From a virus (Duplodnaviria; Caudoviricetes): 64,000 nt of DNA. Of this stretch, positions 3,187 to 55,113 are shown one piece after another. The number at the start of each line of letters is the position of its first letter. Position 1 is the first letter of the stretch. Made by a program: the position numbers and the translations under genes. The DNA is taken from the IMG/VR virus record IMGVR_UViG_3300033498_000048, positions 32,001-96,000 of that record; one strand, written 5' to 3'. The notes under the pieces were generated by a model that worked only from the letters and a program-made list of their open reading frames with translations, was not told the origin of the DNA and did no database searches.

Positions 3187-3465
3187 TCACATCATTGTCT
3201 GTAAAAATGCCAATGTATTATCTGTCCAGTCAACCCACACTTTTAACGTTGGATTAGCGATGAGGGTTTCAACAATTTTTGCTGTGTAATCACAATTTCC
3301 ACCCTCAGCACATTTATATTGTGCCAAAAATCTTTTATTGTTCTTGCCATGATTACTATCTCCTTCTCCTAAATGATTATCTATAAACTGTGTGTGAAAG
3401 TATAAAGCAAAATAAATCAAATGTAAAGGTTTATTTGTCATTAGCAGTTCTAGGAGGTATAACAA
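3187..3465 (-). CDS. Hypothetical protein
   Basis: 92 aa ORF; listed TTG start lies in a repeat arm, so the true start is probably downstream. Confidence 0.55.
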   Translation of the reverse strand: MLYLLELLMTNKPLHLIYFALYFHTQFIDNHLGEGDSNHGKNNKRFLAQYKCAEGGNCDYTAKIVETLIANPTLKVWVDWTDNTLAFLQTMM

Positions 3466-3539
3466 ACTATCAATGACTTAGCACTTGGAACTATTATATA
3501 ACTAAGACCATACCGTAAGTGCTAAGTCATTGATAGTTT
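3464..3539. repeat. Palindromic element, single copy (perfect 23-bp inverted arms, 30-nt core)
   Basis: aaactatcaatgacttagcactt / ggaactattatataactaagaccataccgt / aagtgctaagtcattgatagttt. Confidence 0.95.
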
Positions 3540-3648
3540 ACTTTGTAAACACCACGTTACATCCTGTAAATCAGATTGGATTCGATATAAGCTAAACTCA
3601 TTGCATGGAATAAATATTCGTACAAGGTCGTCACTTGTATATGAATAG

Positions 3649-3965
3649 TTATCTACCAAAATAACTAACTATAGATATAATTCCATTGGATATTATCTTG
3701 TGAAGATGGTGTCCAAGTAATACATTATCACAATTTACAATTGGCTTACAGTGTAAGAAATCACTGAACCCTATTTGTTCTATGGTTATTGCTGGTATAT
3801 TAATTGGAACAAATATTGTCGATAACATTTCATTTGGAATATCTGACCAAGCTAACCACTTTTGCCACGAACTTTTTGCATCAGATACAAGTAATTCATC
3901 TAAAAGCAAAATCGGACTAATAACTTTGGTATTCGCAATCTTTGCTACATTGCTGTATTTTTCAT
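3649..3965 (-). pseudogene. Hypothetical gene apparently frameshifted in an A5 run just after ATG
   Basis: ATG 3965 with AAGGA RBS stops after 6 codons; one extra A gives an open MKKYSNVAKIANTKVISPILLLDE... joining ORF 3649-3909. Confidence 0.5.
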
Positions 3966-3966
3966 A

Positions 3967-5598
3967 TTACACTATAATCCTTGACATAATCTCTTGGTTT
4001 AATGCTATGCCCATTAAATCATTAGCAGTTTTTGGGTTTTTAACTGAACTATCAATTTGATTGCCCATTAAAAATCCTATGGTAGAACCGTTATATCCAC
4101 TCATATAAAACACATTTTCATTATCCCCGTATGTTTCAAATTTTGCTGTGGACTTTTTACCATAAAATGAATTTGGAATATCCCAAAATACAAATACAAA
4201 TTCGTCAACAAAAACACTAGGGAATCCACCTAATAACAATTCATTTTTAAAGCCTTCAACATTTGTTAATGTATCGGATTGACCAGCTTTATCAAATTCA
4301 CCATCACTTAAACACAATATTCCAGTAGGAAACCGTGATAATTCAATTCCAGATTTTAAAAAGTCAACAAATGACGTAGCCACTGCTAATAAGTTAGTTG
4401 AACCAACATTTTCTGAATTATCATTTTGGATTCTTTCAACTGGTGTTAATCCATTCCAAACCTTTAATGTTGCGTCAGTTCCAAACTCATAAAAAATGTT
4501 ATTAAATGGACCAGTCAACATATAACTGAAAAACAATGCTAATGATTTTCCAATATCATAACTAGATACTTTTAATCCATAAGCATTATCTGTCATTGAT
4601 AACGATGTATCGAGAACCGTAATAAAGTTGGCTTTTCGATTTACATTATTGGATGCCAATTCGACTAAACCCATAAATTGTTTATTGATTGTCATTGTTT
4701 CCATCAATGATAACTTTTTATTAGTGTGATTGGACTTAACTTTAGCTAACAATTCAAATGGATAGCCAGTATATTTAACAACAGGTTTATTATCAATCCA
4801 AGTTAAATACCTATCGGTTAAATTGTGTTTTTCTAAAAACTTAGATGAAACAAGTTTAGATAATGCTCTCCCTGGAATTGAATTAAAATCCAATTGTGAC
4901 ATCAATTGTTTACTGATTTGTTGCTGCCATGTGTTTGCAGTTCCACTTGATTTCAATTCACGGTACTTTTGATATGGACTAAAATCTCCACGTTTAATTT
5001 TACCAAACATCGTTGTGGCTAAATGTTTTGCAATATAATGTCTAGCTTGTATTCTTGGTGTCTTATTGGCAATATTTGAACTAATTGATGGTAAGTACAT
5101 TTTCACCAATCCAGTAGTTTGTGGATTTTCTAATCCAGCTAATATCAAATTAGTGAATGCTATCCAATTAAGTTTTCTATTAGCCCAACCATTATGCTCT
5201 AAATCATAAGTTAGCATTTGAAAAATGTCTTTCCATGACCCAGCACAAATAATCAATTCAATGTTGTTCCAAAATAATTCTGGAACAATTCTAGCTAACC
5301 ACATTGCCCTAATAATTGATTCGTGTTTTAAGCCTTGTCCACGTTGTACCGTTTCAGTAATTGTTCCATCAAAGAATTTAACTTTTCTATCAATTAATCT
5401 AAGATATAAGGTTAAAGCCAACGTTTTGTGTGGACATTGTGAATATAACAATCGCATATCAGCACTAATTGATTCCCATGTTCTAATTTCACGATAATGT
5501 GACACAGAACCAAACTGGTCAATAAAATCATCACCTGTTGTAGCGTACTTTAATGCTCCATTACCTGATTTTATTCCCACTGAATTTTTATTAATCAT
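3967..5598 (-). CDS. DUF2828 / TROVE-like protein with C-terminal vWA domain (Ro60-related)
   Basis: 543 aa; N-terminal ENGALK/STG-type start, LYLRLIDR, G.WKD; MIDAS-like VLDTSLSM and LCLSDGEFD; VFWDI. Confidence 0.75.
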   Translation of the reverse strand: MINKNSVGIKSGNGALKYATTGDDFIDQFGSVSHYREIRTWESISADMRLLYSQCPHKTLALTLYLRLIDRKVKFFDGTITETVQRGQGLKHESIIRAMWLARIVPELFWNNIELIICAGSWKDIFQMLTYDLEHNGWANRKLNWIAFTNLILAGLENPQTTGLVKMYLPSISSNIANKTPRIQARHYIAKHLATTMFGKIKRGDFSPYQKYRELKSSGTANTWQQQISKQLMSQLDFNSIPGRALSKLVSSKFLEKHNLTDRYLTWIDNKPVVKYTGYPFELLAKVKSNHTNKKLSLMETMTINKQFMGLVELASNNVNRKANFITVLDTSLSMTDNAYGLKVSSYDIGKSLALFFSYMLTGPFNNIFYEFGTDATLKVWNGLTPVERIQNDNSENVGSTNLLAVATSFVDFLKSGIELSRFPTGILCLSDGEFDKAGQSDTLTNVEGFKNELLLGGFPSVFVDEFVFVFWDIPNSFYGKKSTAKFETYGDNENVFYMSGYNGSTIGFLMGNQIDSSVKNPKTANDLMGIALNQEIMSRIIV

Positions 5599-5622
5599 GT
5601 TTATTTCCTTTAGTCAATATCT

Positions 5623-5883
5623 AACAATCAATGACTTAGCACTTGGAACAGGTTATTAATTACTTAATAGCTGCAAGTGCTAAGTCATTGATTGTTGGTT
5701 AAGTTACCATTCATACTCAATTATAAAGAATCAATAGGTTAGCACTTACATGGGTGTATTAGTTATATAACCGTTCTAAATGCTAAGTCATTGATTGTAT
5801 TATCATTCATTGTCATCTACTATAAATCAATGAGTTAGCACTTGGACGTTGTTACTGATTACCTAATCACGTCCAAGTGCTAA
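5623..5883. repeat. Array of three palindromic elements
   Basis: Units 5623-5696, 5729-5796, 5825-5883 (last right arm truncated); cores 30, 30, 31 nt. Confidence 0.95.
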
Positions 5884-5891
5884 AACTAGCT

Positions 5892-6194
5892 TCATTTGGT
5901 TTCGGCATCTTTAAAAACAGGTTGTATGAAGGTATTAACCTTTAAAATAACATCATTAACATTCACATCATCAATTGATATAGAGTAATCAACAACTTGT
6001 TTATTACCATAATTGATTAATTGAACTCGAATACGATTTAACCAGATAAAGATTAAGATGTTGATGTCAGGATAATCTGATTTGTGATACAAGCACGGAA
6101 AACCACATTGCGAACCAGATTGTAAGTCTACTCCAGTGATACCAGTTTTAACATTGTTGAAAATTTGATTTATTGTTTCATTCGTAAATGGCAT
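5892..6194 (-). CDS. Hypothetical protein bracketed by repeat arrays
   Basis: Track ORF to 6221; GGAG RBS favours ATG 6194 (MPFTNET). Confidence 0.7.
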   Translation of the reverse strand: MPFTNETINQIFNNVKTGITGVDLQSGSQCGFPCLYHKSDYPDINILIFIWLNRIRVQLINYGNKQVVDYSISIDDVNVNDVILKVNTFIQPVFKDAETK

Positions 6195-6213
6195 CTTAAT
6201 TTGCTCCGTATAT

Positions 6214-6668
6214 GTTAGCACTTGTAGTTATTAGGTAATTTGTAACACCTCTAAGTGCTATCTTGTTGATTTAATTGATAATAATATATACTAATATAAT
6301 CAATAAGTTAGCACTTAGAACAGTTATATAACTAAGACCAGACTGCAAGTGCTAACTCATTGATTCAAATGGCGTTTGATTAATTTAAGTTAATTCAATG
6401 AGTTAGCACTTAGGGCGTGTTACAAATTACCTAATGCCTGTAAGTGCTAACTCATTGATTCTTATGTAATACGATTTATATCAATTAATTCAATAAGATA
6501 GCATTTGGAGCGTGTTATAAATTACTTAACGACTGTAAGTGCTAACTCACTGATTTTTATATAATATAATTTACCTCAATTAAATCAATAAGATAGCACT
6601 TGGAGTCTGGTCTTAGTTATATAACTGTTCTAAGTGCTAACTCACTGATATACACACTGTTAGCATTT
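6214..6668. repeat. Array of five palindromic elements plus a trailing half-site
   Basis: Units 6214-6271, 6298-6365, 6393-6460, 6488-6555, 6583-6650; 95-bp period; half-site gttagcattt at 6659. Confidence 0.95.
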
Positions 6669-6677
6669 GCCTGATGG

Positions 6678-6908
6678 TTAATTTAAAAGTCTCCTATACA
6701 AATAACAATTAAGCTCTTTGTCAGACTTTATTGGAAAATACTCGTCTAATACTTCATCACATATCCAATAATCAGAACCACTAAAATCTATTTGTGGATA
6801 ATCATGCTTTAATTGTGATGAATATAATGTCTCACCTCGGTCTATACAATATCGTTGCGATATACTAATATACCCAGCTAATATTGCTTCAATTTTAAAG
6901 ATACTCAT
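6678..6908 (-). CDS. Hypothetical protein
   Basis: 76 aa, GAGGTG RBS. Confidence 0.65.
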   Translation of the reverse strand: MSIFKIEAILAGYISISQRYCIDRGETLYSSQLKHDYPQIDFSGSDYWICDEVLDEYFPIKSDKELNCYLYRRLLN

Positions 6909-7020
6909 TTACACCTCTTAATGGAACATATCCATGCTCGATAAACTTTTGTTTAAGCTCTTCCAATGACATTGAGTTAATACGTTCCATAGCTCGTTTA
7001 GCCAATTCTTGAATGTTCAT
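6895..7020 (-). CDS. Small hypothetical protein (41 aa)
   Basis: Below track cutoff; GGAG RBS; MNIQELAKRAMERINSMSLEELKQKF...; overlaps the next start. Confidence 0.55.
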   Translation of the reverse strand: MNIQELAKRAMERINSMSLEELKQKFIEHGYVPLRGVNEYL

Positions 7021-7050
7021 TTCACTTCTCCAATGTTTTTGATTGTGTTA

Positions 7051-7189
7051 GTTAGCACTTGCTGGATTCAGATATATTAACGATGTCAAAGTGCTTTCCA
7101 GTTAATATTCAATATCAATTAAAACAATGAGTTAGCACTTGGAGCTGTCTATTAATTAACTACCACTTGTAAGTGCTAACTTATTGTTT
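7051..7189. repeat. One degenerate and one intact palindromic element
   Basis: 7051-7095 (28-nt core); 7122-7189 (30-nt core) overlapping the stop of ORF 7188. Confidence 0.9.
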
Positions 7190-7433
7190 AATATCGTTTA
7201 TCTTGTTTTGACACCCATTCCCAAGCGGATTCTTCACTTTCAAAAACGTGGAATTGGGCAAAATGAATCTTTCTGTGTTTACAGTTTCTAATATCTAAAA
7301 AACTACCATTGTCATCTCCAGTTATATGATTCACAACATTAGTTGTCTTAAAATCTCTGGTTCCATTTTTATATCGAAGTTCAAGTATATTATACATTTT
7401 CATTAAACCTATCAATTGATTTGAATATTGCAT
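7188..7433 (-). CDS. Hypothetical protein
   Basis: 81 aa ORF; likely start at the MKMYNILE Met overlapping the upstream gene end. Confidence 0.6.
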   Translation of the reverse strand: MQYSNQLIGLMKMYNILELRYKNGTRDFKTTNVVNHITGDDNGSFLDIRNCKHRKIHFAQFHVFESEESAWEWVSKQDKRY

Positions 7434-7704
7434 TTAAGTTTTTAATTCCAACTGGATTAGCAGAATGAACTTGTAATTTTAATTGACTTGGATATTGTCC
7501 GTTATATGCCAATTCTTCTAAGTATTCAGCAATCGGAATGCTAGTTACTGGAATATCATTAATTGTTCCTAAGTCGTGGTCAAATGATATAACAGTTATT
7601 CTTTCTATAGATTCTTTTATCAGTTCCATAGCAGATTCTAAATCCCTAACTAATATCCAAGAACTGTCTGGTTGGTCTCTAATATCATCAATATATATTT
7701 TCAT
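7390..7704 (-). CDS. Cyclic-phosphate-processing receiver-domain protein
   Basis: KIYIDDIR...W..VR, ISFDHDLG, HSANPVG motifs; GAGGAG RBS. Confidence 0.8.
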   Translation of the reverse strand: MKIYIDDIRDQPDSSWILVRDLESAMELIKESIERITVISFDHDLGTINDIPVTSIPIAEYLEELAYNGQYPSQLKLQVHSANPVGIKNLNAIFKSIDRFNENV

Positions 7705-7723
7705 ATAAAACTCCTCATAATAA

Positions 7724-7791
7724 AATCAGTAGGTTAGCACTTGGAACGGTTATATAACTAATACCACGTTGTAAGTGCTAACTCATTGTTT
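7724..7791. repeat. Palindromic element, single copy
   Basis: aatcagtaggttagcactt / 30-nt core / aagtgctaactcattgttt, between a stop (7804) and the next RBS. Confidence 0.95.
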
Positions 7792-7803
7792 CGTATAGAA
7801 CGG

Positions 7804-8130
7804 CTAAGGAGCTATACCGACATCATAAGAATAATTATCACCATCACAATATCGCTCCACCCAATCTAAATATTCCTTAGATGGTTCATCATGTGTACAT
7901 ATTGAATATTCGCCTTTACCGTTACTCCACTTTCTTATCGAGATTTCCATTTTAGTGTTTTTTATGATTCTAGCTATCTGGTCTAATACCCACGCTTTAT
8001 GGTGTGAACCATCTATTTGTCCATATCGAAATAGATAATGTTCTATCCAATCTTCTTTAGTGTAATCTTTATATGGAGTGTTTTCTATATCAACTGGAAA
8101 TAGACCCAAATATCGTACTTCGTCTTTCAT
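7804..8130 (-). CDS. Conserved-type phage hypothetical; paralog of 50984-51310
   Basis: TPY..Y...DW...YGQIDG.HHKAWVLDQIAR, GIAP end. Confidence 0.75.
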   Translation of the reverse strand: MKDEVRYLGLFPVDIENTPYKDYTKEDWIEHYLFRYGQIDGSHHKAWVLDQIARIIKNTKMEISIRKWSNGKGEYSICTHDEPSKEYLDWVERYCDGDNYSYDVGIAP

Positions 8131-8262
8131 ATTTCAACCTCATTTAATTTTAGGGTTAGCTGGCTGTTGATTATAAAACTTTTATGTGATGTTCTATTGG
8201 AATGATAGTAATTGATTCTATCGTATGGATTTCACTACCTTCATATCCATACGGCATAAACT

Positions 8263-8577
8263 TTATGTGTTTTTTTCACATTTACTCCTTTGTTGTTTTC
8301 TAATATTAACACCACACATTAATAATTCTTCCCTCAAATTATTATCAAACGGATATTGTCTTAACTTACTAGCAAACATTCCATATCTATCAATTACTAA
8401 TTTGTTATCATTCAAAAGAACATAATATCCCTCTAAACTTTGTTGACAGATTTGAATTTGTGCATTTAATAATTCATATTCGTTGACATATCCCAATAAC
8501 ACATCTTCATTATCATATAACGGTATTCTAACATAATCAATAGTTTTCAACTCAATCATTCTTATTCTCCAGTTCAA
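8263..8577 (-). CDS. Hypothetical protein
   Basis: 104 aa ORF; probable start MIELKT with GGAG RBS. Confidence 0.6.
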   Translation of the reverse strand: MNWRIRMIELKTIDYVRIPLYDNEDVLLGYVNEYELLNAQIQICQQSLEGYYVLLNDNKLVIDRYGMFASKLRQYPFDNNLREELLMCGVNIRKQQRSKCEKNT

Positions 8578-8583
8578 CTTTAC

Positions 8584-8844
8584 CTAAAAACTAGGTCTAT
8601 ATTTCAACTTATCATATTCACTCTTGTCAATTAATTGTAGTTTTTTACCAATTAAGGTTTGGTTATAACAATCTATTATAACCAAACCAACTGCTTTCAA
8701 ATCCCAACCACATTCATTGCACCACACATGACCATCTATAGAGTTTAATATCGTATGGTTATCACCTACAATCATTGCATATTGGCTAGTCATTGACATT
8801 CCAATATTATCAAATTTTACTCCATTCACACGTTCAATATTCAC
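8584..8844 (-). CDS. Hypothetical protein
   Basis: 86 aa, GTG start, AAGGAG RBS. Confidence 0.65.
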   Translation of the reverse strand: MNIERVNGVKFDNIGMSMTSQYAMIVGDNHTILNSIDGHVWCNECGWDLKAVGLVIIDCYNQTLIGKKLQLIDKSEYDKLKYRPSF

Positions 8845-8866
8845 AACTAACTCCTTATAATAATTA

Positions 8867-9028
8867 AATCAATAAGTTAGCACTTATTGGCATTAGTTAA
8901 TTAGTAACACCGTCCAAGTGCTAACCTACTGATTTAATTGAGTATAATATACACTAATATTATCAATAGGTTAGCACTTGGACCAGTTAAGTAATTAATA
9001 CCACGTTGTAAGTGCTAACTCATTGATT
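8867..9028. repeat. Array of two palindromic elements
   Basis: 8867-8934 and 8961-9028; 30-nt cores, 26-nt linker. Confidence 0.95.
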
Positions 9029-9032
9029 TATA

Positions 9033-10247
9033 TTACACTAATATAATTGTGTTGAATTTAGTACGACTGAGTGCAGTGTACAAACAACGCAGTTTTTCTT
9101 CAATAGTTCCAGGCATACTTAAGATGTCTTTTGTGTTGATTACTGTAGTATCATACGATGACCCCTGGGATTGATGTGCAGTTAAACAATATGAATGTTT
9201 AACATGAATAAACGTATCTCTAAATTTATAATAATCTTTCCAAGTAAACGATTTATCACCTTTAGCTAATTGATTTCCCATTTCAGTTAATATGGAATTT
9301 AAACCAATTCTATCTTGTGGAGCAACAAAACTATTGTTAATGACTAATGATGGAATTTCAAATTTTACACTTCCAACTTTGATTATTGAATTATGTGGCT
9401 CTATATCTTCAACATCAATAATATCACCAATATTCATTACAATGGTGTTATTAGTATCAAGTTTATATGGACGCTGTAATATCAACGATTCGTTCTTTGA
9501 GTATATGAACTCTGCATTTGGATAAATTGTTTGATGACATAAATCATTTAGATTATCTACAACTACATTCCTATACGCAATAGCCGAACAGTTTTTGGTA
9601 TTTAACTTATTAGCCATTTGATTCAATATTGAAATGAAGTTATCACTTTTACGAATTATAATAACACTTCTGGTGATTCCATCTTTTCCAACGATTTGTC
9701 CAGAAAACTTAGATAAGTCTGGAATAATATTCGTTTTTGACAATATTAATGTGCGTAACAATGCCAATAATGGTCTTATTGGATGATTAACATTCGTTTG
9801 TCTCATTTGTTCAGTTAATGTGATACTTTCATGTACCAAAGAAAATGCTGGACTATAATTTAAATTTACTGGAAATAATTGTGCTTCATCTCCAACAATA
9901 ACAATCTTAATATGTTTTAATCGTTTAACTCTTGAACATATTATATCATCAACCATACTACCTTCATCTATTACTAATACATCATATTGTGTAGATTTAC
10001 ATTCACCTTTTTTGTCAATACTGACAACTCCAGTATATTCATTTACAACTAAGCCTAAGAATGAATATATCGTCATACAATCAATTTGATTACAACCCAT
10101 TTCAATTAGTACATTCACAGCTTTGTTAGTTGGAGCTGTAAATGCTATACGAACATTCTTTGACACCTGTTGTAATAAATACGTTTTCCCAGTTCCAGCT
10201 TCACCGTATAGCCCTATTCGTTTATCCCTAGGGCTATTCATAATCAA
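9033..10247 (-). CDS. dda: SF1B DNA helicase (T4 Dda / RecD-like)
   Basis: Walker A GEAGTGKT, APTNKAV, DEGSM, VGDEAQLFPV, LTEQMRQ, LTAHQSQGSSYD, LYTALSR. Confidence 0.85.
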   Translation of the reverse strand: MIMNSPRDKRIGLYGEAGTGKTYLLQQVSKNVRIAFTAPTNKAVNVLIEMGCNQIDCMTIYSFLGLVVNEYTGVVSIDKKGECKSTQYDVLVIDEGSMVDDIICSRVKRLKHIKIVIVGDEAQLFPVNLNYSPAFSLVHESITLTEQMRQTNVNHPIRPLLALLRTLILSKTNIIPDLSKFSGQIVGKDGITRSVIIIRKSDNFISILNQMANKLNTKNCSAIAYRNVVVDNLNDLCHQTIYPNAEFIYSKNESLILQRPYKLDTNNTIVMNIGDIIDVEDIEPHNSIIKVGSVKFEIPSLVINNSFVAPQDRIGLNSILTEMGNQLAKGDKSFTWKDYYKFRDTFIHVKHSYCLTAHQSQGSSYDTTVINTKDILSMPGTIEEKLRCLYTALSRTKFNTIILV

Positions 10248-10306
10248 ATCAACAGCATTATTTTGTAATTGATTTAATTTAATTTTATATCACTCCACAA
10301 CTTTAG

Positions 10307-10729
10307 TTACCGATTATCGTTATCAATTATCAAATCAGACTTTGGATTAAAAATGAACAATCTAAGTTCTTCTTTAGACAAATCAGCAGTTGTGCCACTC
10401 GATTGGTGGTCAATGTAACTATCTTTATCAAGGTCATACACAACAGAAGAACATCCTGTTTGTTCCATAATAACTTCCGTTAATAAAGCTAACTTGGAAT
10501 AACTATGCTGATAATCTACAGCTACATAATTTGCCTTAGTTATGGCATCATTATATTCTTCATAACCCCAACCAAACTCACCTCCAGTCAACGTTACAAC
10601 ACCATCCTCATTAACTGGTAATGTTTCTAATAACTCATCCGTATCACTAATTGAAATTGAATGAGTTGAGGATGAGTTAGTTTCAAATACATCTTTTCTA
10701 ATTATTTGCTTCATTTTGTTTTCCCTCAA
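10307..10729 (-). CDS. FETNSSSTHS-family phage protein
   Basis: IRKDVFETNSSSTHSISI, FGWGYE, YIDHQS; tandem paralog of the next ORF. Confidence 0.8.
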   Translation of the reverse strand: MRENKMKQIIRKDVFETNSSSTHSISISDTDELLETLPVNEDGVVTLTGGEFGWGYEEYNDAITKANYVAVDYQHSYSKLALLTEVIMEQTGCSSVVYDLDKDSYIDHQSSGTTADLSKEELRLFIFNPKSDLIIDNDNR

Positions 10730-11615
10730 TTGTAATAATTGCCCATTTTGCCACGTCTGCGTCCGAATCAGTAGTTAATTGTTCTAATGCCCAATTTGGT
10801 AGTTTTTCATTTGTAGCAAGTTCCATACGAATATACTTGTCATCACAATCTAAGAATTTAACTAAGAGGTCAGCTGGACAATTATCATTATAAACCATAG
10901 TTGTTTTAATATCTTTATAAGTGTCATCAGCTTCAACTATAGCCAATATGTGATGTGGGGTATTCTCATTTGAAATTATCTCGGTTACTATTTCCAAGTT
11001 ATCCATATTCAAATTAAACAACAATTCCAATATTGAATCAGTTGATTTTGGATGACTAGCAACATCTAATTTATCACTATATGTTCCATTAATAGCCCAC
11101 TCGGTTAATGTTTCAACATCAACATTCGTGTCGTAGCCATTATCATTTCCAGTTTTAAGTATTGACTTTGGGTTAAAGATAAAACTTCTTAATAATTCTG
11201 GAGATTCAAATAAATAATGTAAGTCTTTACTCTCAACAGATTGATGGTCAATATAACCAAAATCAAAATACAATTCATTTGTAGTGTAATTCTTTTTAGG
11301 AGTACCCTTAAAAATTACATTATCACATTGAGTTTGTTCTTTAATAATCTGCTTCAATACAGATAGGAATTGTTCACTTTTATCTCCAGACCAATCTAAA
11401 GCATAAATTAGGGAATAATTAGCTTTATCTATTGTGTTGGAATATGTTTTCCATTCCCAACCAAACTTACCTCCAGTTATAATAACATTACCATCAATAT
11501 CAACTGGCAACGTTTCAAACAATTCATTTGCTAATGTTGAATCCAATGATATTGAATGGGTTGAAGATGAATTTGTTTCAAACACTTTTTTTCTAATCAT
11601 ATTATTTGTTCTCAT
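10698..11615 (-). CDS. FETNSSSTHS-family protein with C-terminal HEAT/LRV-like helical repeats
   Basis: Same N-terminal motifs; C-terminus has repeated ASHPKS/ISNENTP/VYNDNCP/ATNEKLP units. Confidence 0.8.
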   Translation of the reverse strand: MRTNNMIRKKVFETNSSSTHSISLDSTLANELFETLPVDIDGNVIITGGKFGWEWKTYSNTIDKANYSLIYALDWSGDKSEQFLSVLKQIIKEQTQCDNVIFKGTPKKNYTTNELYFDFGYIDHQSVESKDLHYLFESPELLRSFIFNPKSILKTGNDNGYDTNVDVETLTEWAINGTYSDKLDVASHPKSTDSILELLFNLNMDNLEIVTEIISNENTPHHILAIVEADDTYKDIKTTMVYNDNCPADLLVKFLDCDDKYIRMELATNEKLPNWALEQLTTDSDADVAKWAIITIEGKQNEANN

Positions 11616-11912
11616 AGTAAGGTTCCTCGGTTGAGTCGGATGAAGTGTTTAATAAGCCCATACTAATTAATTGGTCATACCTATAGCTCTGGAATTTAGA
11701 CTTCACTTTCGATTTTCGCCTTGGTTTTATTGTTATTTCACATTCCCACACCTCCCAATCCCCACCTTTTGGAGGATTAATACAACCAACTATCATTCCA
11801 GCAAACAGTTGTGAACCCTTATCGTTAGGGTTACTTGTAACAAACTTTCCAATGGTTTTAAATTCACGTTCGCCTGTTATTGGCTCTAAATCAATTGCTA
11901 ATGTTTTTTTCA
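11602..11912 (-). CDS. Hypothetical protein
   Basis: Track ORF to 12036; MKKTLAID start at 11912 minimises overlap with the radical SAM gene. Confidence 0.6.
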
Positions 11913-12766
11913 TAATAGTTTTTAATGGATTGATAATTGCTTTTATGTTCATTCCGTGATGATGGAGAAAAATACTTATCAACGGCATTAATATAAAATG
12001 AGTGTTCGTGTTGGTATGATGATTTCCACAAATCATCTGGAATGAATCTTTTTATCTTTAATTGTTCCAATGCTAAATTATCAAACGCAACAACATCAAA
12101 CAACTTAAATAGCTCATTTACATACCATAACCATTGTTTGTGTGAACGTGATGTTAAGTCAACTTTACCTAGATTGAATCCAAAGTCCTTTTCACCTAAA
12201 ATTAATATCTTTTTAACACCTATTGTAGATAGCCCTTTAACTGCACTAAAATCGTCTATACCAGCGATAACGTGGACAACCATGTTATCATACTCAGTGA
12301 ACGGTATAAACGCTGTAATGGCACGGAATGACACTCCAAGACCATATATTAACTGATTATCAATCAAGTGTTGGATGTGTTTACGCATTGAAGCTATTGT
12401 TAATTGATTAACTGTAAGATTGCATATGAAACCACACTCTTTAGCCCAATGTAAGAACTCCCACAATTGTTCTGAATATTGGTTACAACCGATAGCCAAT
12501 TCAATTCCAGCTGGAATTTCTGCTAACACAGACTTTAACTCGGTGTAATCACACTCATCACCATCCACAGTTGCGGATTCGTGGCAAAAGTGACACACCG
12601 ACTTTCCAGTATTTTTATTATAACCAAGTGGACACCCAGATTGGACTCGAATATCAATGTTTAACGGATAATCAAGTTTAAGTTCATTATCCACCCAAGT
12701 AACGGTTCTTGTTCCGTCTAATAATACCGAAACAACGGCATTACCATTTGTATATTCTACAATCAT
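11891..12766 (-). CDS. Radical SAM protein with atypical CX12CX2C motif
   Basis: PLNIDIRV..GC-PLGYNKNTGKSV-CHFCHES, ELAIG, NLTVNQ, GLGVS. Confidence 0.75.
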   Translation of the reverse strand: MIVEYTNGNAVVSVLLDGTRTVTWVDNELKLDYPLNIDIRVQSGCPLGYNKNTGKSVCHFCHESATVDGDECDYTELKSVLAEIPAGIELAIGCNQYSEQLWEFLHWAKECGFICNLTVNQLTIASMRKHIQHLIDNQLIYGLGVSFRAITAFIPFTEYDNMVVHVIAGIDDFSAVKGLSTIGVKKILILGEKDFGFNLGKVDLTSRSHKQWLWYVNELFKLFDVVAFDNLALEQLKIKRFIPDDLWKSSYQHEHSFYINAVDKYFSPSSRNEHKSNYQSIKNYYEKNISN

Positions 12767-12768
12767 AA

Positions 12769-13317
12769 TTAACCTTTTTTCTTAATTTTTAAAAGTTCAT
12801 TAATAATGGAGTTAAGTTTAATGTTTTCAACATCGGGTGTCAACAAGTTTAATACATTTTGAAGTAAATCGGTTTTATTCGGAAATATTAATTTTAGTGC
12901 TTCTTCACCTGAACCATATACTCCAAGATACCAAACATCATCTGGAATCGAATGTCCAATTATAGATTCAAATCTTGTCCTATTAAAAAACAATATTGAT
13001 GGAACATCATACACCACTGGAATAATTAAAGCAGTTGAACCACGACAAATATGAGTCATTGATTTAATCATATCAACCTGCTCATCGCGTTTTTTGTTAT
13101 TTGATGTGTAAGCATTATACACATATATTCCAATACTTGGTTCATCTGTCAATATTCTTGAAAATTGTCCAATTGCGGAACTGTAAATATCATTCTCATA
13201 AACCTTATATTGGTCTTTTTCAAATATCGTAGACAATATTTTATCTACAATTTTCAAATTTAATTCAGTATCACACAACACTCTAATTCTTCTTTTCATA
13301 ATATACTCATTTATCAA
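12769..13317 (-). CDS. Hypothetical protein
   Basis: 182 aa, operonic. Confidence 0.7.
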   Translation of the reverse strand: MINEYIMKRRIRVLCDTELNLKIVDKILSTIFEKDQYKVYENDIYSSAIGQFSRILTDEPSIGIYVYNAYTSNNKKRDEQVDMIKSMTHICRGSTALIIPVVYDVPSILFFNRTRFESIIGHSIPDDVWYLGVYGSGEEALKLIFPNKTDLLQNVLNLLTPDVENIKLNSIINELLKIKKKG

Positions 13318-13595
13318 TGGAAACTGTCATTTAAACCCAACATTGTAGTCATTCAATATTAGAAATCTTACTAACATCCAAACCAAACGGTTTCGTGTTT
13401 TTATCAATCCAATCCCTCAATTCTTCTACTTCACACAACAATCCAATTTGTTCTTCATGGGGCATTGTATCAAAATGAAATTTAATACTGTTAAACATCC
13501 CGATAATTCCTGATAATGCTATCATAATTGTTCCTCGTTCCTTCTTCTTAAACTGTTAATGGGATAACTATTGCAAATAGTTCCTTTAGTTACCG

Positions 13596-13949
13596 TTAAT
13601 AGTCACAATATCTGCATTTTACATCTCCTTCATCGTTGATGATTTCTAAAATAGCTAAACTTTTAGATGTATTAGATAACCCATTCTTACTCCACACATT
13701 ATATCTATCTTCCCCAACAAAACCTATAAAATCCCCTATACTATAATCACTAGGGTAAAAATTATCTAAATCTTCTTGGTCTTCGATATATACATTTTTG
13801 ACATATACTAACTTACCACAATTTAACTTAACTAAACATTTACCATTTTTATCACAGATATTTTTTAGTTTTGTAGTAAATGGGTTTAATCTATCTTCTA
13901 AATAAATTATAGCTGGATTTTCTGATAATTCTGTCATAATTGATGCCAA
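13596..13949 (-). CDS. Hypothetical protein
   Basis: 117 aa, downstream of promoter 13975-14005. Confidence 0.65.
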   Translation of the reverse strand: MASIMTELSENPAIIYLEDRLNPFTTKLKNICDKNGKCLVKLNCGKLVYVKNVYIEDQEDLDNFYPSDYSIGDFIGFVGEDRYNVWSKNGLSNTSKSLAILEIINDEGDVKCRYCDY

Positions 13950-13974
13950 TTAACATTTTTAAAAACGATGGCGT

Positions 13975-14005
13975 ATTGTAACACACCTAAAAATAAAAAG
14001 TACAA
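13975..14005 (-). promoter_or_regulatory. Extended -10 early promoter
   Basis: TTGTAC..T-rich..GTGTGT-TACAAT; near-copy at 24980-25010. Confidence 0.55.
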
Positions 14006-15227: not shown

Positions 15228-15253
15228 TGGTATTTCCCACTTTAATATTAACT

Positions 15254-15466
15254 TCAGCCTATTCTGCTTGGTCTACACTCAAAAACAGAGCCACAAGTTT
15301 CACAATGTTCAATGTAAATTGTTACCGTTCTTTCACCATCGTCACAATCAAAAATCAAATCCTTAAACCGTGTTTCTGTAAGTTTTGAACAATCGCATTT
15401 TATTAGTTCACCACATTCATCACACCAGCCACTATCTAATTCACCATGCTCACTACATTTGTACAT
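15254..15466 (-). CDS. Small Cys-rich (Zn-binding) hypothetical protein
   Basis: C.EHG..C..C..C and C..CG motifs. Confidence 0.65.
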   Translation of the reverse strand: MYKCSEHGELDSGWCDECGELIKCDCSKLTETRFKDLIFDCDDGERTVTIYIEHCETCGSVFECRPSRIG

Positions 15467-15549
15467 TCAATGTCATCCAACTTATTTTTTATGGGTCTAT
15501 ATCAAATATAAACATTATTTACTCACCAACATTGAGGGGTGCTAAATCT

Positions 15550-15602
15550 GCACCCATCGTAGTATAACTTAATTAATGGATGCAAGTGCTAACTCATTGA
15601 TT
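15550..15602. repeat. Degenerate palindromic element (right arm intact)
   Basis: aagtgctaactcattgatt at 15584-15602; left arm eroded (gcaccc). Confidence 0.75.
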
Positions 15603-15625
15603 TATGGTTACACACTGGATTGGGA

Positions 15626-15976: not shown

Positions 15977-16077
15977 TTCATTTAGTCCTTGTCAAGTTAA
16001 ATATGTTAGTATGTGGAACATTTATGTGATTAATCCAAGTACACATCACTTACAACCATTAGTTAATTATAAGACCG

Positions 16078-16496: not shown

Positions 16497-16831
16497 AACT
16501 ATCAATGACTTAGCATTTGGAACAGTTAGGTAATTACTAACACACCACAAGTGCTAAGTCATTGATAGTTGTTATCGTATAAGTTTGGTAGTAACTGTTC
16601 CAAGTGCTAACTCGTTTGTGTCAATAACCTGTTCTATAATATCATTCATTGTCAATTATTAAGAATCAATGACTTAGCATTTGGAACAGTTATATAATTT
16701 AATTAACTAATGCCTGTAAGTGCTAACTCGTTGATTCTTAATAATTGATAAATATACAGTAACAATCAATAACTTAGCACTTGGAACAGTTATACAACTA
16801 AGACCACGGTGTAAGTGCTAACTCATTGATT
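16497..16831. repeat. Array of palindromic elements at a divergent junction
   Basis: 16497-16570 intact; partial ending 16602-16618; 16664-16736 (35-nt core); 16764-16831 intact. Confidence 0.95.
16747..16754 (+). promoter_or_regulatory. Possible late promoter (GATAAATA) inside an array linker
   Basis: NATAAATA variant about 100 nt upstream of the plus-strand late operon. Confidence 0.4.
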
Positions 16832-17456: not shown

Positions 17457-17457
17457 T

Positions 17458-25027: not shown

Positions 25028-25285
25028 TATCAATGAGTTAGCATTTGGAGCTATTAGGTAATTAGTAAACAGTTCCAAGTGCTAACTCATTGATAGTGTT
25101 ATCATTCATTGTCAATTATTAAGAATCAATGACTTAGCACTTACTGCGTGTTACTAATTACCTAATAGCCCCAAGTGCTAACCTGTTGATTTTATTATAA
25201 TATAATTTATGTTTGTAAACCAATGAGTTAGCACTTCGGCAGTGTTATGTTATTAATACCTATTATAAGTGCTAACCTATTGATA
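25028..25285. repeat. Array of three palindromic elements
   Basis: 25028-25095, 25124-25191, 25218-25285; all 30-nt cores. Confidence 0.95.
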
Positions 25286-32877: not shown

Positions 32878-32899
32878 AATCAATAGGTTAGCATTTGGA
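32878..32899. repeat. Solitary half-site of the palindromic element
   Basis: aatcaataggttagcattt+gga, no partner arm. Confidence 0.8.
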
Positions 32900-34921: not shown

Positions 34922-35863
34922 TTAACTCCTAGCTATTAACCAGTTAGAATAGTCAACCAATTCTTGTTCTAGTCTTAGTATTGTATTAGCGAATTTAGTA
35001 AGACATGAATCCAAGTGAGATTGTGGATAAACCAAAAAATGTAGTGGATTTTTAATTATAACAACATTTGATTTTATTAGTGTTGATAATTTAATAGCGT
35101 TACCTTCTACTGTGGAAACAGTTTTCGGTGTTGTTTTTGCTACATGGTAACTCAACCTATCAATATAAAACCTATCACCTGAATTAAAATGTGTTAAGTT
35201 ATTCAACTCGAACAATTCACATTTTAATGATTTGTGTTTTGTTAATGATGAGGTGTTTTCGATAAAATGTGCATATCTTACTCTTAATAAAGCATATTGA
35301 TACGCACCAATTGAAGTATTAAATTCCATATCAAATAGTTTACCTCCACGAATATTATACGTTACAGCAATGAACTTGTTATTTGGAAGTTGGACTGGTG
35401 TAACACTAACACGGTTTCCAGTTGTGTGGTGTAAATCACAAATCACATCTGCAAGGTCTAATAATGCTGGAGTATTAACACACTCAGCTTCCATATCTAA
35501 CTGTTTAAAATCATCATCTGGAACTACTGGTGCTAAATCCTCAACGCTAGGTACATATTCACCTTCAATTCCAATTAAATGGTCTCTGTCGGTTTCTTCT
35601 AACAGACTAATTACATTTGATAATAGATGGAACCCAAAACTCCTAGCACCTTCACCAACTTGGATAACTTTAAATTCATTCCGTACAGTGTCAAATGTGT
35701 ACTCCAACACTCTTTCAAATCTATCATCAATCAATTTAAATGATTTAATTCCACTTAAAATATCATTAGCATACTTTCCCAATAACGGTTTAATTTTGTT
35801 CATTATTATTACCTCTGATTGTCTATGTTGGATATTATAATGCGTTATATATTCCAATGTCAA
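34922..35863 (-). CDS. Hypothetical protein
   Basis: 313 aa ORF; probable start MNKIKP after a GAGGT RBS. Confidence 0.7.
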   Translation of the reverse strand: MTLEYITHYNIQHRQSEVIIMNKIKPLLGKYANDILSGIKSFKLIDDRFERVLEYTFDTVRNEFKVIQVGEGARSFGFHLLSNVISLLEETDRDHLIGIEGEYVPSVEDLAPVVPDDDFKQLDMEAECVNTPALLDLADVICDLHHTTGNRVSVTPVQLPNNKFIAVTYNIRGGKLFDMEFNTSIGAYQYALLRVRYAHFIENTSSLTKHKSLKCELFELNNLTHFNSGDRFYIDRLSYHVAKTTPKTVSTVEGNAIKLSTLIKSNVVIIKNPLHFLVYPQSHLDSCLTKFANTILRLEQELVDYSNWLIARS

Positions 35864-35870: not shown

Positions 35871-36385
35871 TTTCAATGAGTTAGCACTTATAGGTGTTGG
35901 GTAATTAGTAACCTGTTCCAAATGCTAACCTATTGATATTGTTAGTGTATATTATTATCAATTAAATCAATAAGTTAGCACTTATAGGTGTTGGGTAATT
36001 AGTAACCTGTTCCAAATGCTAACCTATTGATATTGTTAGTGTATATTATTATCAATTAAATCAATAAGTTAGCACTTACAGTTTGGTATTAGTTAGTTAA
36101 TGGTTGCAAGTGCTAACTCATTGATTTGTAGTAATTGACAATGATGACACATGGACACGATATATTGATAACCAAGAATCAATGAGTTAGCACTTGGAAC
36201 AGGTTACTAATTAACCAACACATACAAATGCTATGTCATTGATATTTAACACCTAACTAATTGGCTAACAGAATCAATGACATAGCATTTGCAGCTATTA
36301 TATAATTAACTAACACCTCTAAGTGCTAAGTCATTGATAGTTGGTGCTATTGATTGTTTAGTTGAAAATCAAAGGGTTAGCATTT
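35871..36385. repeat. Array of five palindromic elements plus a half-site, including a perfect 94-bp tandem duplication
   Basis: 35871-35938, 35965-36032, 36059-36126, 36177-36244, 36272-36339; half-site 36367-36385; 35880-35973 identical to 35974-36067. Confidence 0.95.
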
Positions 36386-36797: not shown

Positions 36798-37179
36798 TGC
36801 TAACCTATTGATTTAATTGAGAATTATATACTAATATTATCAATAGGTTAGCACTTGTAACCATCTTATAATTAACTAACTGCTGCAAGTGCTATCTTAT
36901 TGATAACTAAGCACAAACTTATGTGGCATAAGAATCAATGATGATATGTGGAACAATTTGTGTCCATCAAGTTAGCACTTCCCAGTTTGTGTTAATAATT
37001 GACATGAATACACTCAACCAACTATCAATGAGTTAGCACTTACAACTGGTTACTAATTACCTAACTGCTTAAAGTGCTAACGCATTGATTTGTATAGTGC
37101 ATATTTTTACATATAATTATCAACAAGATAGCACTTGGAACAGTGTTATTAATTACCTAATGGCTGCAAGTGCTAACGC
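36798..37179. repeat. Array of palindromic elements at a divergent junction
   Basis: Half 36798-36812; units 36838-36905, 37023-37090, 37118-37179 (right arm truncated); half 36971-36980. Confidence 0.95.
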
Positions 37180-37187
37180 TATAAATA
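37180..37187 (+). promoter_or_regulatory. T4-type late promoter TATAAATA
   Basis: Exact match, 27 nt before ATG 37215. Confidence 0.75.
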
Positions 37188-53861: not shown

Positions 53862-54024
53862 TTGCTCTCTTAATTGTGTCCATATTAAAATACTCGGTTG
53901 GAATATAATAGCAACTTTTACCTGAAATTAAACATAATTCAGTAATTGTAATGCCACCATTATCAATCCAAGCATATTTAATATTGACATTCGATTGAAT
54001 GCTATTTCTGAATCTGATATTTGT

Positions 54025-54240
54025 TTATTCATCTTCATTATCCACCTCTACTAGATAAATTTGTTCTTCATAATTTGAAGGTGTTACTTTTAATGGAAAC
54101 TCTATCACATAATCATTCGCAACATCAAATGTATAAAATTGTCGTCCGTTGATTTTCACACCAGTCACAATTTGTTTAAATTTTAATCCACGACATTTTG
54201 ATTTGTGGTACAAGTTACTATATTGTTCTTTTGTTATCAC
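54025..54240 (-). CDS. Hypothetical protein
   Basis: 71 aa, GTG start, downstream of a consensus promoter. Confidence 0.6.
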   Translation of the reverse strand: MITKEQYSNLYHKSKCRGLKFKQIVTGVKINGRQFYTFDVANDYVIEFPLKVTPSNYEEQIYLVEVDNEDE

Positions 54241-54273
54241 TATATTAACTACCGTTTAAGTATTAGTTTTCAA

Positions 54274-54302
54274 ATTATAGTCAATTTAATATTCAATGTC
54301 AA
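54274..54302 (-). promoter_or_regulatory. Consensus sigma70 promoter
   Basis: TTGACA-17-TATAAT. Confidence 0.8.
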
Positions 54303-54328
54303 TACATTTGTTACGCTAAAAGTAAATT

Positions 54329-54637
54329 GGAACAACTATTATAATTAACTAACACGTCCAAGTGCTAACTTATTGATTTAATTGAATTATGGTAAAATGC
54401 TTAATAAACAGTTAGTTAGCACTTAGACACATTAGGTAATTACTAACACGATGCAAGTGCTAACCCATTGATTGTTGGTATTCATGTCAATTATTAAGAA
54501 TCAATAAGTTAGCACTTGGACGTGTTAGTTAATTATAATACTGTCTAAGTGCTAACCCATTGATTTAACTGGCTTATGGTGAAAATGTTTAATAAACAAG
54601 TTAGTTAGCATTTAGAAGACCATCTGCAAGTGCTAAC
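54329..54637. repeat. Array of four palindromic elements (one one-armed, one core-deleted)
   Basis: Right arms at 54360, 54455, 54547, 54628; last core only 14 nt. Confidence 0.9.
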
Positions 54638-54811
54638 AGTCACTTAACAAGTAACTTTGTAAGATATTAACTCATCTACAAAAAATTCATCCAAGCCTCT
54701 TTGTGTAATGGTTCAGTAAGATATGTAAAGATACTATTAATTTCACTACTAACAAATTTAATACATTATCCATTTTATGCTCCACATTTACCATTAGTTG
54801 TAATTTATAAA

Positions 54812-54840
54812 AGTATAGTCATTTGACAGTCCGATGTCAA
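54812..54840 (-). promoter_or_regulatory. sigma70-type early promoter between two arrays
   Basis: TTGACA-17-TATACT, driving a short GGAG-preceded ORF at 54773. Confidence 0.65.
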
Positions 54841-54871
54841 CTATCAGTGTATATTCATGTCAATTATGAAG

Positions 54872-55113
54872 AATCAATGACTTAGCACTTGGAACGGTTA
54901 TATAACTAACTAACACCATCAAGTGCTAACTTATTGATTTGATTGAGTTATGATAAAGACTTAATAAGCAGTCAGTTAGCACTTAGAATCACTCAATAAG
55001 GTGCTAACGCTTAATAATTGACAACGAATAGATAACACAACCAACTATCAATGAGTTAGCACTTGCAACCATTATATAATTAATACACCCATGTAAGTGC
55101 TAACTTATTGATT
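54872..55113. repeat. Array of three palindromic elements (middle one core-deleted)
   Basis: 54872-54939, 54969-55008 (14-nt core), 55046-55113. Confidence 0.92.

What the first reader, a model, noticed from the sequence alone, without database searches (positions are those of the whole stretch)
3464..55113. Dispersed family of 68-bp palindromic elements with a fixed 19-12-6-12-19 architecture
Seen: about 30 intact and about 12 degenerate copies in about 14 intergenic loci. Each has inverted arms (AATCAATRASTTAGCAYTT ... AARTGCTAASTYATTGATT) around a core that is exactly 30 nt in 26 of 30 units. In 22 of those 26, core positions 13-18 are TAAYTA (3 more have one mismatch), flanked asymmetrically by N6-RTTA-NN and N-TAAC/KACC-N7. 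Both core orientations occur within single arrays. Inference: fixed geometry, a conserved 6-bp centre and built-in polarity resemble a protein-bound recombination site (6-bp overlap as in tyrosine-recombinase sites), or a multi-copy origin/enhancer like baculovirus hrs or the module-separating repeats of CP220-like Campylobacter phages. I recognise no named element with this sequence, and no recombinase is in the window.
Basis: partly seen in the sequence, partly recalled or inferred. Interest (0 to 1): 0.92.

Follow-up and report, generated by a model that had tools for sequence, protein, structure and literature searches.

The report
Palindromic boundary repeats between phage genes
A 306-kb uncultured T4-like phage carries about 90 copies of a 68-bp mirror-image DNA element between its genes, often just upstream of early promoters and at the edges of gene blocks that related phages have reshuffled. 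It looks like an unusually elaborate, probably protein-bound version of the known "PeSL" cassettes of T4-type phages.

Summary
The window has 28 two-armed units, 26 with a 30-nt core and 22 with TAAYTA at the centre. The genome has 86 units plus about 39 lone arms, nearly all intergenic.

The arms do not co-vary and show no G·U/A·C strand bias. Core orientation is independent of gene strand. Core length is held at 30 nt despite 40% sequence divergence. This favours recognition as duplex DNA over a pairing-selected hairpin.

Arm positions 1-13 fit the IHF consensus WATCAANNNNTTR in 79% of arms. Three related uncultured phages (64-69% protein identity) keep only TTAGCACTT-N29/30-AAGTGCTAA.

Element-bearing gaps are 5.5-fold enriched for strong host-type early promoters, and the elements always lie upstream of them. 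One spacer family is the 5' half of such a promoter.

Genes shared with the relatives are element-bounded blocks in a different order. No tyrosine or serine recombinase, HUH, TnpB or DDE transposase was found.

Best reading: the dyad module of PeSL-type early cassettes, protein-bound (IHF inferred, second factor unknown) and used as recombination homology. It is a new variant of a known kind. Other agents of this scan reached similar readings on other windows of this genome. Function is inferred, not shown.

The parts
3468..3535 (.). unit, 30-nt core (orientation +), single copy
5626..5890 (.). array: units 5626-5693 and 5729-5796 (cores -), plus a truncated third unit 5825-5890 that ends at the stop of ORF 5892-6221
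6253..6650 (.). array: lone right arm 6253-6271, then units 6298-6365 (+), 6393-6460 (-), 6488-6555 (-) and 6583-6650 (-), period exactly 95 bp
7122..7189 (.). unit, 30-nt core (-)
7724..7791 (.). unit (+) that fills a 99-bp gap between two minus-strand genes: 12 nt after a stop, 19 nt before the next start
8867..9028 (.). two units, 8867-8934 and 8961-9028 (+), with an S2-type spacer at 8935-8960; ends 4 nt from the stop of the Dda-like helicase gene 9033-10247
15584..15602 (-). lone arm (0 mismatches)
16500..16831 (.). array: units 16500-16567 (+), 16664-16736 (35-nt core) and 16764-16831 (+); the last ends 25 nt before the ATG at 16857
25028..25285 (.). array of three units, 25028-25095 (+), 25124-25191 (-) and 25218-25285 (-); S1 spacer at 25096-25123
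32878..32896 (+). lone arm (1 mismatch)
35871..36385 (.). array: units 35871-35938, 35965-36032 and 36059-36126 (cores -), 36177-36244 and 36272-36339 (+), and a lone arm 36367-36385; the first two units and their spacers are near-identical (a tandem duplicate)
35834..35863 (-). early promoter TTGACA-N18-TATAAT, 7 nt beyond the first unit of the array, driving the minus-strand gene that ends at 35863-31
36838..37090 (.). units 36838-36905 (+) and 37023-37090 (-) in a divergent gap; weaker arm remnants near 36795 and 37118
37180..37187 (+). T4-type late box TATAAATA directly behind an AAGTGCTAAC half-arm, 28 nt before the ATG at 37215
54311..54565 (.). degenerate unit ending at 54378, then units 54406-54473 (+) and 54499-54565 (29-nt core)
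54274..54302 (-). perfect early promoter TTGACA-N17-TATAAT between the array and ORF 54025-54240, whose homologue in relative L221 also follows an element plus a promoter
54872..55113 (.). units 54872-54939 (+) and 55046-55113 (+), with a degenerate unit between them
55122..55129 (+). late box TATAAATA 8 nt after the last unit, 36 nt before the ATG at 55165

Best explanation
The element (E) is the dyad module of a PeSL-type intergenic cassette system in a small clade of uncultured, AT-rich T4-like phages. Shown: E consists of two inverted 19-bp arms held 30 bp apart by an AT-rich, intrinsically polar core. The part conserved across the clade is TTAGCACTT-N29/30-AAGTGCTAA. E sits between transcription units, preferentially just upstream of strong host-type early promoters (0-31 nt before the -35 box in eight cases). 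E also lies at the borders of gene blocks that related phages hold in a different order. Inferred: E is read as double-stranded DNA by proteins. Host IHF would bind the outer boxes, whose positions 1-13 fit WATCAANNNNTTR. An unidentified dimeric factor would bind the invariant inner arms, and the fixed spacing lets both arms be contacted at once. The resulting bent complex would act as a boundary or upstream element for early units. Its roughly 125 near-identical copies, together with two conserved spacer families, give the phage's homologous-recombination machinery patches of homology. Because E is its own inverse, those patches allow excision, insertion and inversion of E-bounded cassettes. 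This also explains the free assortment of arm variants, core orientation and spacers.
For: Reality and scale. Duplex rather than hairpin: at the polymorphic arm positions 8, 9 and 17, left and right arms agree no more often than chance (36 vs 38.2, 45 vs 44.8, 60 vs 60.9). G·U versus A·C mismatches show no bias towards the transcribed strand (35 vs 29 in minus-strand contexts). Core orientation is independent of gene strand (19 + and 22 - in minus-strand contexts). Length constraint: cores differ pairwise at 11.9 of 30 positions, yet 80 of 86 are exactly 30 nt. IHF fit: 136 of 172 arms match WATCAANNNNTTR, while matches outside arms equal expectation (55 vs 55.4). The least informative arm positions are 1 and 7-10, the W and N positions of the consensus. 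The consensus itself is documented. Clade conservation: contigs L220 and L221 (helicase 69% and 66% identical) and L224 (64-69% identical proteins) carry 1, 1 and 8 intergenic copies of TTAGCACTT-N29/30-AAGTGCTAA, with different cores and outer arms. Promoter link: 12 of 36 E-bearing gaps against 33 of 396 others hold a correctly oriented promoter scoring at least 11/12 (odds ratio 5.5, p=7.5e-5). Apart from one promoter that lies inside an array, E is upstream of the promoter. There is no link to the late TATAAATA boxes. Spacer S1 equals the upstream part and -35 box of such promoters. Shuffling: L224 joins homologues of this phage's genes from 122, 38.7, 118.7/119.2 and 36-37.6 kb, each E-bounded in both genomes. 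The ORF after E plus promoter in L221 is homologous to window ORF 54025-54240, which has the same layout elsewhere in the genome. Dispersal: the nearest relative of 69 of 80 units lies at another locus, and spacer families are shared between loci.
Against: There are no binding or transcript data. The IHF box is lineage-specific: it is absent in L221 and L224 and present on one side only in L220. Its fit could therefore be partly coincidental, with positions 8-10 acting as a variable linker. The phage encodes no HU/IHF homologue and the host is unknown. Twenty-four of 36 E-bearing gaps lack a strong promoter, and 5 are convergent gaps. Stable hairpins are predicted for every copy, and E often starts 2-50 nt after a stop codon, so an RNA-level role is not excluded. 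No candidate binding protein was identified.
Confidence: 0.45

Rival explanations
1. E acts as an RNA hairpin, or a hairpin in single-stranded DNA. It would be a factor-dependent terminator, a 3'-end stabiliser or an RNase III-type processing site between cistrons. This is the role given to the stem-loop of classical PeSLs.
For: All tested copies fold stably (-15 to -35 kcal/mol, z -3 to -11). Many arrays begin 2-50 nt after a stop codon and, in L224, right at stop codons. Canonical terminators are scarce (1 found against 4.8 expected in 15 kb). Cores of relatives carry inner stems of different sequence. PeSL stem-loops are reported to be effective terminators (PMC2839356).
Against: The arms show no covariation and there is no G·U/A·C strand bias. 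No T-run follows the element. Core orientation is random relative to transcription. The largest arrays lie in divergent gaps: 25 units in 7 gaps. In 9 of 24 co-directional gaps 37 nt or fewer separate the last E from the next start codon, so that gene must be read through E. A structure-only role explains neither the invariant 9-bp arm sequence across lineages nor the fixed 30-nt loop. No Rfam family matches.
Confidence: 0.25
2. E is a selfish MITE-like element of the Correia, ERIC or BIME type. Its arms would be terminal inverted repeats for a transposase supplied in trans, and it would have no function for the phage.
For: The architecture is terminal inverted repeats, with both orientations, truncated copies and lone arms. 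The nearest relative of 69 of 80 units is at a distant locus. Copies occur in all four gap types. Correia elements and IS ends also carry IHF sites (own knowledge).
Against: None of six transposase or recombinase families is present in the complete genome. No target-site duplication is visible in the flanks. The element is absent from 185,579 prokaryote species genomes; the inner-arm pattern gives 14 single hits, about my own rough chance estimate of 17. An E lies at the same place after the RNA-ligase gene in this phage and in L224, at 69% protein identity, with conserved arms and a diverged core. That indicates long retention. There is also a significant link to early promoters.
Confidence: 0.12
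3. The arrays are enhancer or replication-origin clusters in the manner of baculovirus hrs. A phage early protein would bind the dyads to activate nearby early promoters or to start replication.
For: The arrays are dispersed sets of imperfect palindromes with a fixed centre in a large dsDNA virus. They are enriched upstream of early promoters and are largest in divergent promoter regions. The geometry is fixed.
Against: Twenty-four of 36 loci have no strong promoter, and 5 lie between convergent genes. About 36 origins would be implausibly many. No activator is known. There is no sequence relation to hrs, so only an analogy is possible.
Confidence: 0.08
4. E is a true site-specific recombination site, integron-like or pdif-like, cut and rejoined in its TAATTA centre by a dedicated recombinase.
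For: Cassette borders coincide with E in four lineages. The core has polarity. Half-cores of different types combine freely around the central AA|TT in this phage and in L224.
Against: There is no tyrosine or serine recombinase and no HUH enzyme. The arms are 30 bp apart rather than 6-8 bp. Sequence is conserved while pairing is not, the opposite of attC sites. T4-type homologous recombination on short homologies is sufficient to explain the exchanges (PMC2839356).
Confidence: 0.05

Closest known systems
PeSL / PmSL cassettes (promoter-early stem-loops) of T4-type phages (Arbiol et al. 2010, PMC2839356; Comeau et al. 2014, PMC4122927)
   Same: The host is a T4-type phage. A conserved dyad or stem-loop sits directly upstream of a strong sigma-70-type early promoter, Shine-Dalgarno sequence and small ORF. 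The cassettes concentrate among small ORFans, and degraded half-copies that keep only the -35 part occur. They lie at the insertion, deletion and replacement borders between related phages.
   Different: The dyad here is 68 bp rather than a short GC-rich stem. It is AT-rich and has no T-run. It has sequence-invariant 9-bp arms and a length-fixed 30-nt polar core. Its outer arms fit the IHF consensus. It is palindromic and therefore direction-less. It is amplified into mosaic arrays with a period of about 95 bp, and two thirds of the loci have no complete promoter.
E. coli BIME-1 / RIP (RIB) elements and REP arrays
   Same: Both are dispersed intergenic mosaics of inverted palindromic units joined by a few conserved linker types. 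Both have IHF consensus sites built into the repeat, and both have about a hundred copies.
   Different: REPs are 20-40 bp, GC-rich and cellular. Their IHF site lies in the linker between two REPs, not in the arms. They are tied to RAYT transposases, which were not found here. They avoid divergent gaps, where the arrays here are largest.
Correia elements of Neisseria and other bacterial MITEs (ERIC, RUP)
   Same: All are small elements bounded by terminal inverted repeats, found between genes in both orientations. They carry promoter-like ends and IHF sites and have no known transposase.
   Different: Correia elements have TA target duplications and are 100-155 bp. They are chromosomal, not phage-borne, and do not form regular arrays. 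No duplication is seen here.
Baculovirus homologous regions (hrs)
   Same: Both are arrays of imperfect palindromes with a fixed centre, dispersed around a large dsDNA virus genome. Both are linked to early transcription and to recombination.
   Different: There is no sequence relation. The hrs bind the viral IE-1 protein and act as enhancers and origins in eukaryotic cells. Nothing comparable has been shown here.

Membership tests
PeSL cassettes | Found in a T4-type phage genome | tested here: met
   22 correctly placed T4-type late boxes TATAAATA; Dda-like helicase and baseplate-wedge paralogues; distant relatives are T4-like Stenotrophomonas and Acidovorax myophages.
PeSL cassettes | Stem-loop or dyad directly upstream of a strong sigma-70-like early promoter, followed by Shine-Dalgarno sequence and ATG | tested here: met
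   Met at 12 of 36 loci in this phage (odds ratio 5.5, p=7.5e-5; E is upstream apart from one promoter inside an array; 0-31 nt from the -35 box in 8 cases) and in relatives L220 and L221. Not met at the other 24 loci.
PeSL cassettes | The stem-loop is an effective transcription terminator | not testable with these tools
   Stable folds are predicted. However there is no T-run, no covariation, and read-through is required at 9 gaps. The sequence evidence leans against this feature.
PeSL cassettes | Lies at insertion, deletion and replacement borders between related phages | tested here: met
   Gene order around E differs between this phage and L220, L221 and L224. The shared genes are E-bounded blocks.
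PeSL cassettes | Recombination between copies yields mini-circles | not testable with these tools
   This needs inverse PCR or long reads. The joints reported are cross-mapping of other copies, not evidence.
REP / BIME | Associated RAYT (Y1 HUH) transposase | tested here: not met
   PF01797 gives no hit in the complete genome.
REP / BIME | Mosaic of inverted palindromic units with a few conserved linker types, one of which carries an IHF site | tested here: inconclusive
   There are two linker families, S1 and S2, but the IHF-consensus fit lies in the arms, not in a linker.
MITE | Target-site duplication and a cognate transposase | tested here: not met
   No duplication is visible in 172 flanks. 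rve, DDE_Tnp_1, TnpB, Y1_Tnp, integrase and resolvase are absent. Other transposase families were not tested.
Tyrosine-recombinase core site / integron attC | Cognate recombinase, and two inverted binding arms around a 6-8-bp overlap (for attC: conserved structure with variable sequence) | tested here: not met
   No PF00589 hit. The arms are 30 bp apart. Sequence is conserved while pairing is not.
IHF-binding site | Match to WATCAANNNNTTR, with variation confined to the degenerate positions | tested here: met
   136 of 172 arms match. The lowest information content is at positions 1 and 7-10. Actual binding is not testable here, and the box is missing in L221 and L224.
Baculovirus-type hr | Bound by a viral transactivator; enhancer and origin activity | not testable with these tools
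   Only the statistical link to early promoters is available.

The most novel reading that the evidence does not exclude
A lytic T4-like phage clade may run a dedicated cassette-exchange system. An as yet unrecognised phage protein would bind the invariant TTAGCACTT arms of the IHF-flanked dyads and direct excision, insertion or inversion of the gene blocks between them. That would be a functional counterpart of integrons or pdif modules without any known recombinase family.
Probability: 0.12. Interest if true: 0.85.

Novelty: new variant of a known kind. Interest (0 to 1): 0.55.

Why it matters
PeSLs were proposed as the motors of gene-cassette shuffling in T4-type phages, but their stem-loops are short and variable. 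Whether a specific protein reads them has stayed open (PMC2839356). This clade offers a much sharper handle. It has a 48-bp core signature that is invariant over more than 30% protein divergence, a fixed spacing, IHF-type flanks and about a hundred copies. A pull-down, a footprint or an inverse-PCR test is therefore straightforward. The element also shows that BIME-like mosaic repeat architecture, known from bacterial chromosomes, can make up about 2% of a virus genome.

Tried and rejected
- **Pairing-selected hairpin:** rejected as the main reading because there is no covariation and no strand bias.
- **E as a promoter:** its hexamers are wrongly spaced for sigma-70. The TTGACA in spacer S1 has no -10 box at 16-18 nt and points away from the next gene in about 15 of 25 cases. 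Promoter-like sites are not enriched overall (82 vs 96.6 expected).
- **MotA-box (T4 middle promoter) reading of AAGTGCTAA:** no MotA domains in the genome, and the spacing to -10-like hexamers is inconsistent.
- **Phage-encoded HU/IHF (TF1-like):** none found.
- **Intrinsic terminator:** no T-run follows the element.
- **CRISPR-like array:** the spacers belong to two repeated families, not unique sequences.
- **Origin in host chromosomes or known phages:** nothing in genome contigs, IMG/VR or GenBank phages. The first loose IMG/VR scan and the metagenome scan returned chance hits.
- **More distant relatives:** RNA-ligase homologues at 51% identity or less (L239-L241) and L113 have no such dyads.
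- **Structural variants from reads:** the joints seen when contigs were laid on the window are other genomic copies cross-mapping and were not used as evidence.
- a mistyped reference; it gave nothing.

Full report
**Context.** The window is bases 32,001-96,000 of a 305,782-bp IMG/VR phage record with terminal repeats. It is 31% G+C. It was recovered from a microbial-mat metagenome and is present, identical, in a second mat sample. It encodes a Dda-like helicase and several baseplate-wedge-like paralogues. Its nearest cultured relatives, at about 36% protein identity, are T4-like myophages of Stenotrophomonas, Xanthomonas and Acidovorax. The genome holds at least 30 perfect or near-perfect TTGACA-N17/18-TATAAT promoters 25-45 nt before ORF starts. 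It also holds 22 T4-type late boxes TATAAATA 11-45 nt before ORF starts. It therefore appears to use host sigma-70 early and T4-style late transcription.

**Check of the observation.** The arm pattern hits 61 times in the window against 0.03 expected and 189 times in the genome.
- Pairing the arms gives 86 units, 80 with a 30-nt core, plus about 39 lone arms.
- In the window there are 28 units, 26 with 30-nt cores, and 22 of those have TAAYTA at core positions 13-18.
- The units are almost wholly intergenic and make up 1.9% of the genome.
- Within arrays the spacer is 25-28 nt in 29 of 36 neighbouring pairs, giving a period of 94-96 bp.

**Anatomy.** When the cores are oriented, the consensus half-cores are GGAACAGTTATATAA and, read from the other side, GCAGCGTGTTATTAA.
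- The two halves are homologous. They differ by a one-base shift (6+9 against 7+8 nt), and this shift produces the polarity.
- Mirrored core positions agree less often than chance, so the polarity is real.
- Core orientation is 39 + and 41 - overall and does not follow gene strand.
- Arm variants, core orientation and flank modules assort independently.
- Directly outside the arms lie a few recurrent modules, mirrored on either side. S1 is cttaataaTTGACAatgaatgataacac, S2 begins TAATTGAG and contains TATAAT, and a third is a short GTTGGT extension.

**Hairpin or duplex?** Several results argue against a hairpin maintained by pairing.
- At the three clearly polymorphic arm positions (8, 9, 17), left and right arms match no more often than shuffled pairs.
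- Transition mismatches show no preference for G·U on the transcribed strand.
- No T-run follows the element, and no Rfam family matches.
- Cores differ pairwise at 11.9 of 30 positions, yet 93% keep exactly 30 nt. This length constraint is expected for a protein that touches both arms of duplex DNA, not for a hairpin loop.
- Every copy could still fold, so an RNA role is not excluded. It is simply not what the sequence statistics favour.

**IHF box.** Arm positions 1-13 read (A/T)ATCAA-NNNN-TTA, which is the IHF consensus WATCAANNNNTTR (consensus confirmed in the literature).
- 136 of 172 arms match it fully.
- Matches elsewhere in the genome equal expectation (55 vs 55.4).
- The least informative arm positions are 1 and 7-10, the degenerate positions of the consensus.
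- I noted this before consulting earlier findings (note). Two other agents reached the same reading on other windows.
- Caveats: the phage has no HU/IHF gene, the host is unknown, and the box is lineage-specific, as described next.

**Relatives.** No other IMG/VR contig, GenBank phage or prokaryote genome carries the element.
- Protein searches found three short contigs of related uncultured phages, all 33% G+C. L220 and L221 have helicases 69% and 66% identical. L224 has DUF7788 and RNA-ligase proteins 64% and 69% identical.
- They carry 1, 1 and 8 intergenic copies of TTAGCACTT-N29/30-AAGTGCTAA. L224 also has tandem arrays with a 77-78-bp period.
- Outer arms and cores differ from this phage's. 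Half-cores are recognisably related among the relatives, sharing TTGTATACATA.
- Only L220's promoter-side arm keeps the IHF-type box.
- More distant relatives (51% identity or less) have no such dyads.
- Freshwater runs hold relatives at 90-95% identity in which the repeat bins are several-fold deeper than the gene bins.
- The clade-wide invariant is therefore the 9-bp inverted arm at a fixed spacing. This argues for a conserved sequence-specific reader other than IHF.

**Relation to transcription.** E occupies 36 of 432 gaps, in all four gene arrangements: 20 and 4 co-directional, 7 divergent and 5 convergent.
- E-bearing gaps are 5.5-fold enriched for strong, correctly oriented early promoters (12 of 36 vs 33 of 396, p=7.5e-5).
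- Apart from one promoter that lies inside an array, E is upstream of the promoter. In eight cases it lies within 31 nt of the -35 box, and in three the arm end is fused to TTGACA.
- Late boxes show no association.
- S1 is the upstream part and -35 box of such a promoter without a -10 box. This resembles the degraded half-PeSLs described by Comeau et al..
- In L220 and L221, E is followed by TTGATT-16-TATAAC and TTGACT-18-TATAAT respectively, and then by a small ORF.
- In 9 of 24 co-directional gaps no promoter can fit between the last E and the next start codon. E is therefore not a tight terminator.

**Relation to genome plasticity.** Gene order around E differs between lineages.
- Downstream of the conserved helicase, the three lineages carry different small ORFs. 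L221's first ORF is homologous to window ORF 54025-54240, which lies behind a degenerate E and a perfect promoter 45 kb away in this phage. One L220 ORF has its homologue at 195 kb.
- L224 joins homologues of genes that lie at 122, 38.7, 118.7/119.2 and 36-37.6 kb here. Each is bounded by E in both genomes.
- An E follows the RNA-ligase stop codon in both phages, with conserved arms and unrelated cores. This speaks for long retention rather than recent insertion.
- Within the genome, 69 of 80 units have their closest relative at another locus.
- No tyrosine or serine recombinase, Y1 HUH, TnpB, rve or DDE_Tnp_1 gene is present. T4-type recombination works on homologies under 50 bp (PMC2839356).
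- Homologous exchange at E and its spacers is thus the most economical mechanism. Because E is its own inverse, inversion is as available as excision.

**Verdict.** The finding is real and striking in scale. In kind, it is the dyad module of PeSL-type mobile regulatory cassettes, with BIME-like mosaic arrays and IHF-type arms. I rate it a new variant of a known kind.
- Shown: the protein-binding signature in the sequence statistics, the association with early promoters, and the cassette borders.
- Inferred: IHF binding, the second factor, and any boundary or activating function.
- Main rival: a hairpin acting on RNA.

Noticed in passing
L125, L127, L147, L158-L160, L189, L191, L196, L204, L206 (metagenome contigs): A different conserved intergenic motif of about 76 bp has the same 9-bp inverted arms and the same 30-nt spacing (TTAGCACTT-N30-AAGTGCTAA, with TTGACT in its core). 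It sits in divergent gaps next to a DUF927/AAA helicase gene 25-27% identical to this phage's 530-aa protein at genome 218717-220309. It could be a shared DNA-binding specificity or chance.
   Followed up: partly
window 55122-55129, 37180-37187 and 20 other genome sites: T4-type late promoter boxes TATAAATA lie 11-45 nt upstream of ORF starts, two of them directly behind element arms.
   Followed up: partly
whole genome, e.g. window 54274-54302 (-), 35834-35863 (-): There are some 30 perfect or near-perfect TTGACA-N17/18-TATAAT promoters 25-45 nt before ORF starts. This is an unusually canonical early promoter set for a 31% G+C phage.
   Followed up: partly
window 17458-19329, 37215-39068, 55165-56733, 56730-60386: Four large paralogous proteins share baseplate-wedge or virion-structural repeat domains (phrog_24074, phrog_3545, phrog_13163).
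   Followed up: no
L221 2505-2620: Between the helicase stop and the element lies a second, unrelated dyad with 15-bp arms, CTGTACGAGAAACGT and its complement, about 57 nt apart.
   Followed up: no
window 3967-5598 (-): A 543-aa DUF7788 protein (PHROG 'RNA-binding protein') has more than 1,400 homologues at about 50% identity in metagenomes. It is flanked by elements here and in L224.
   Followed up: no
window 3000-18000: Canonical intrinsic terminators are rarer than chance: 1 found against 4.8 expected.
   Followed up: no
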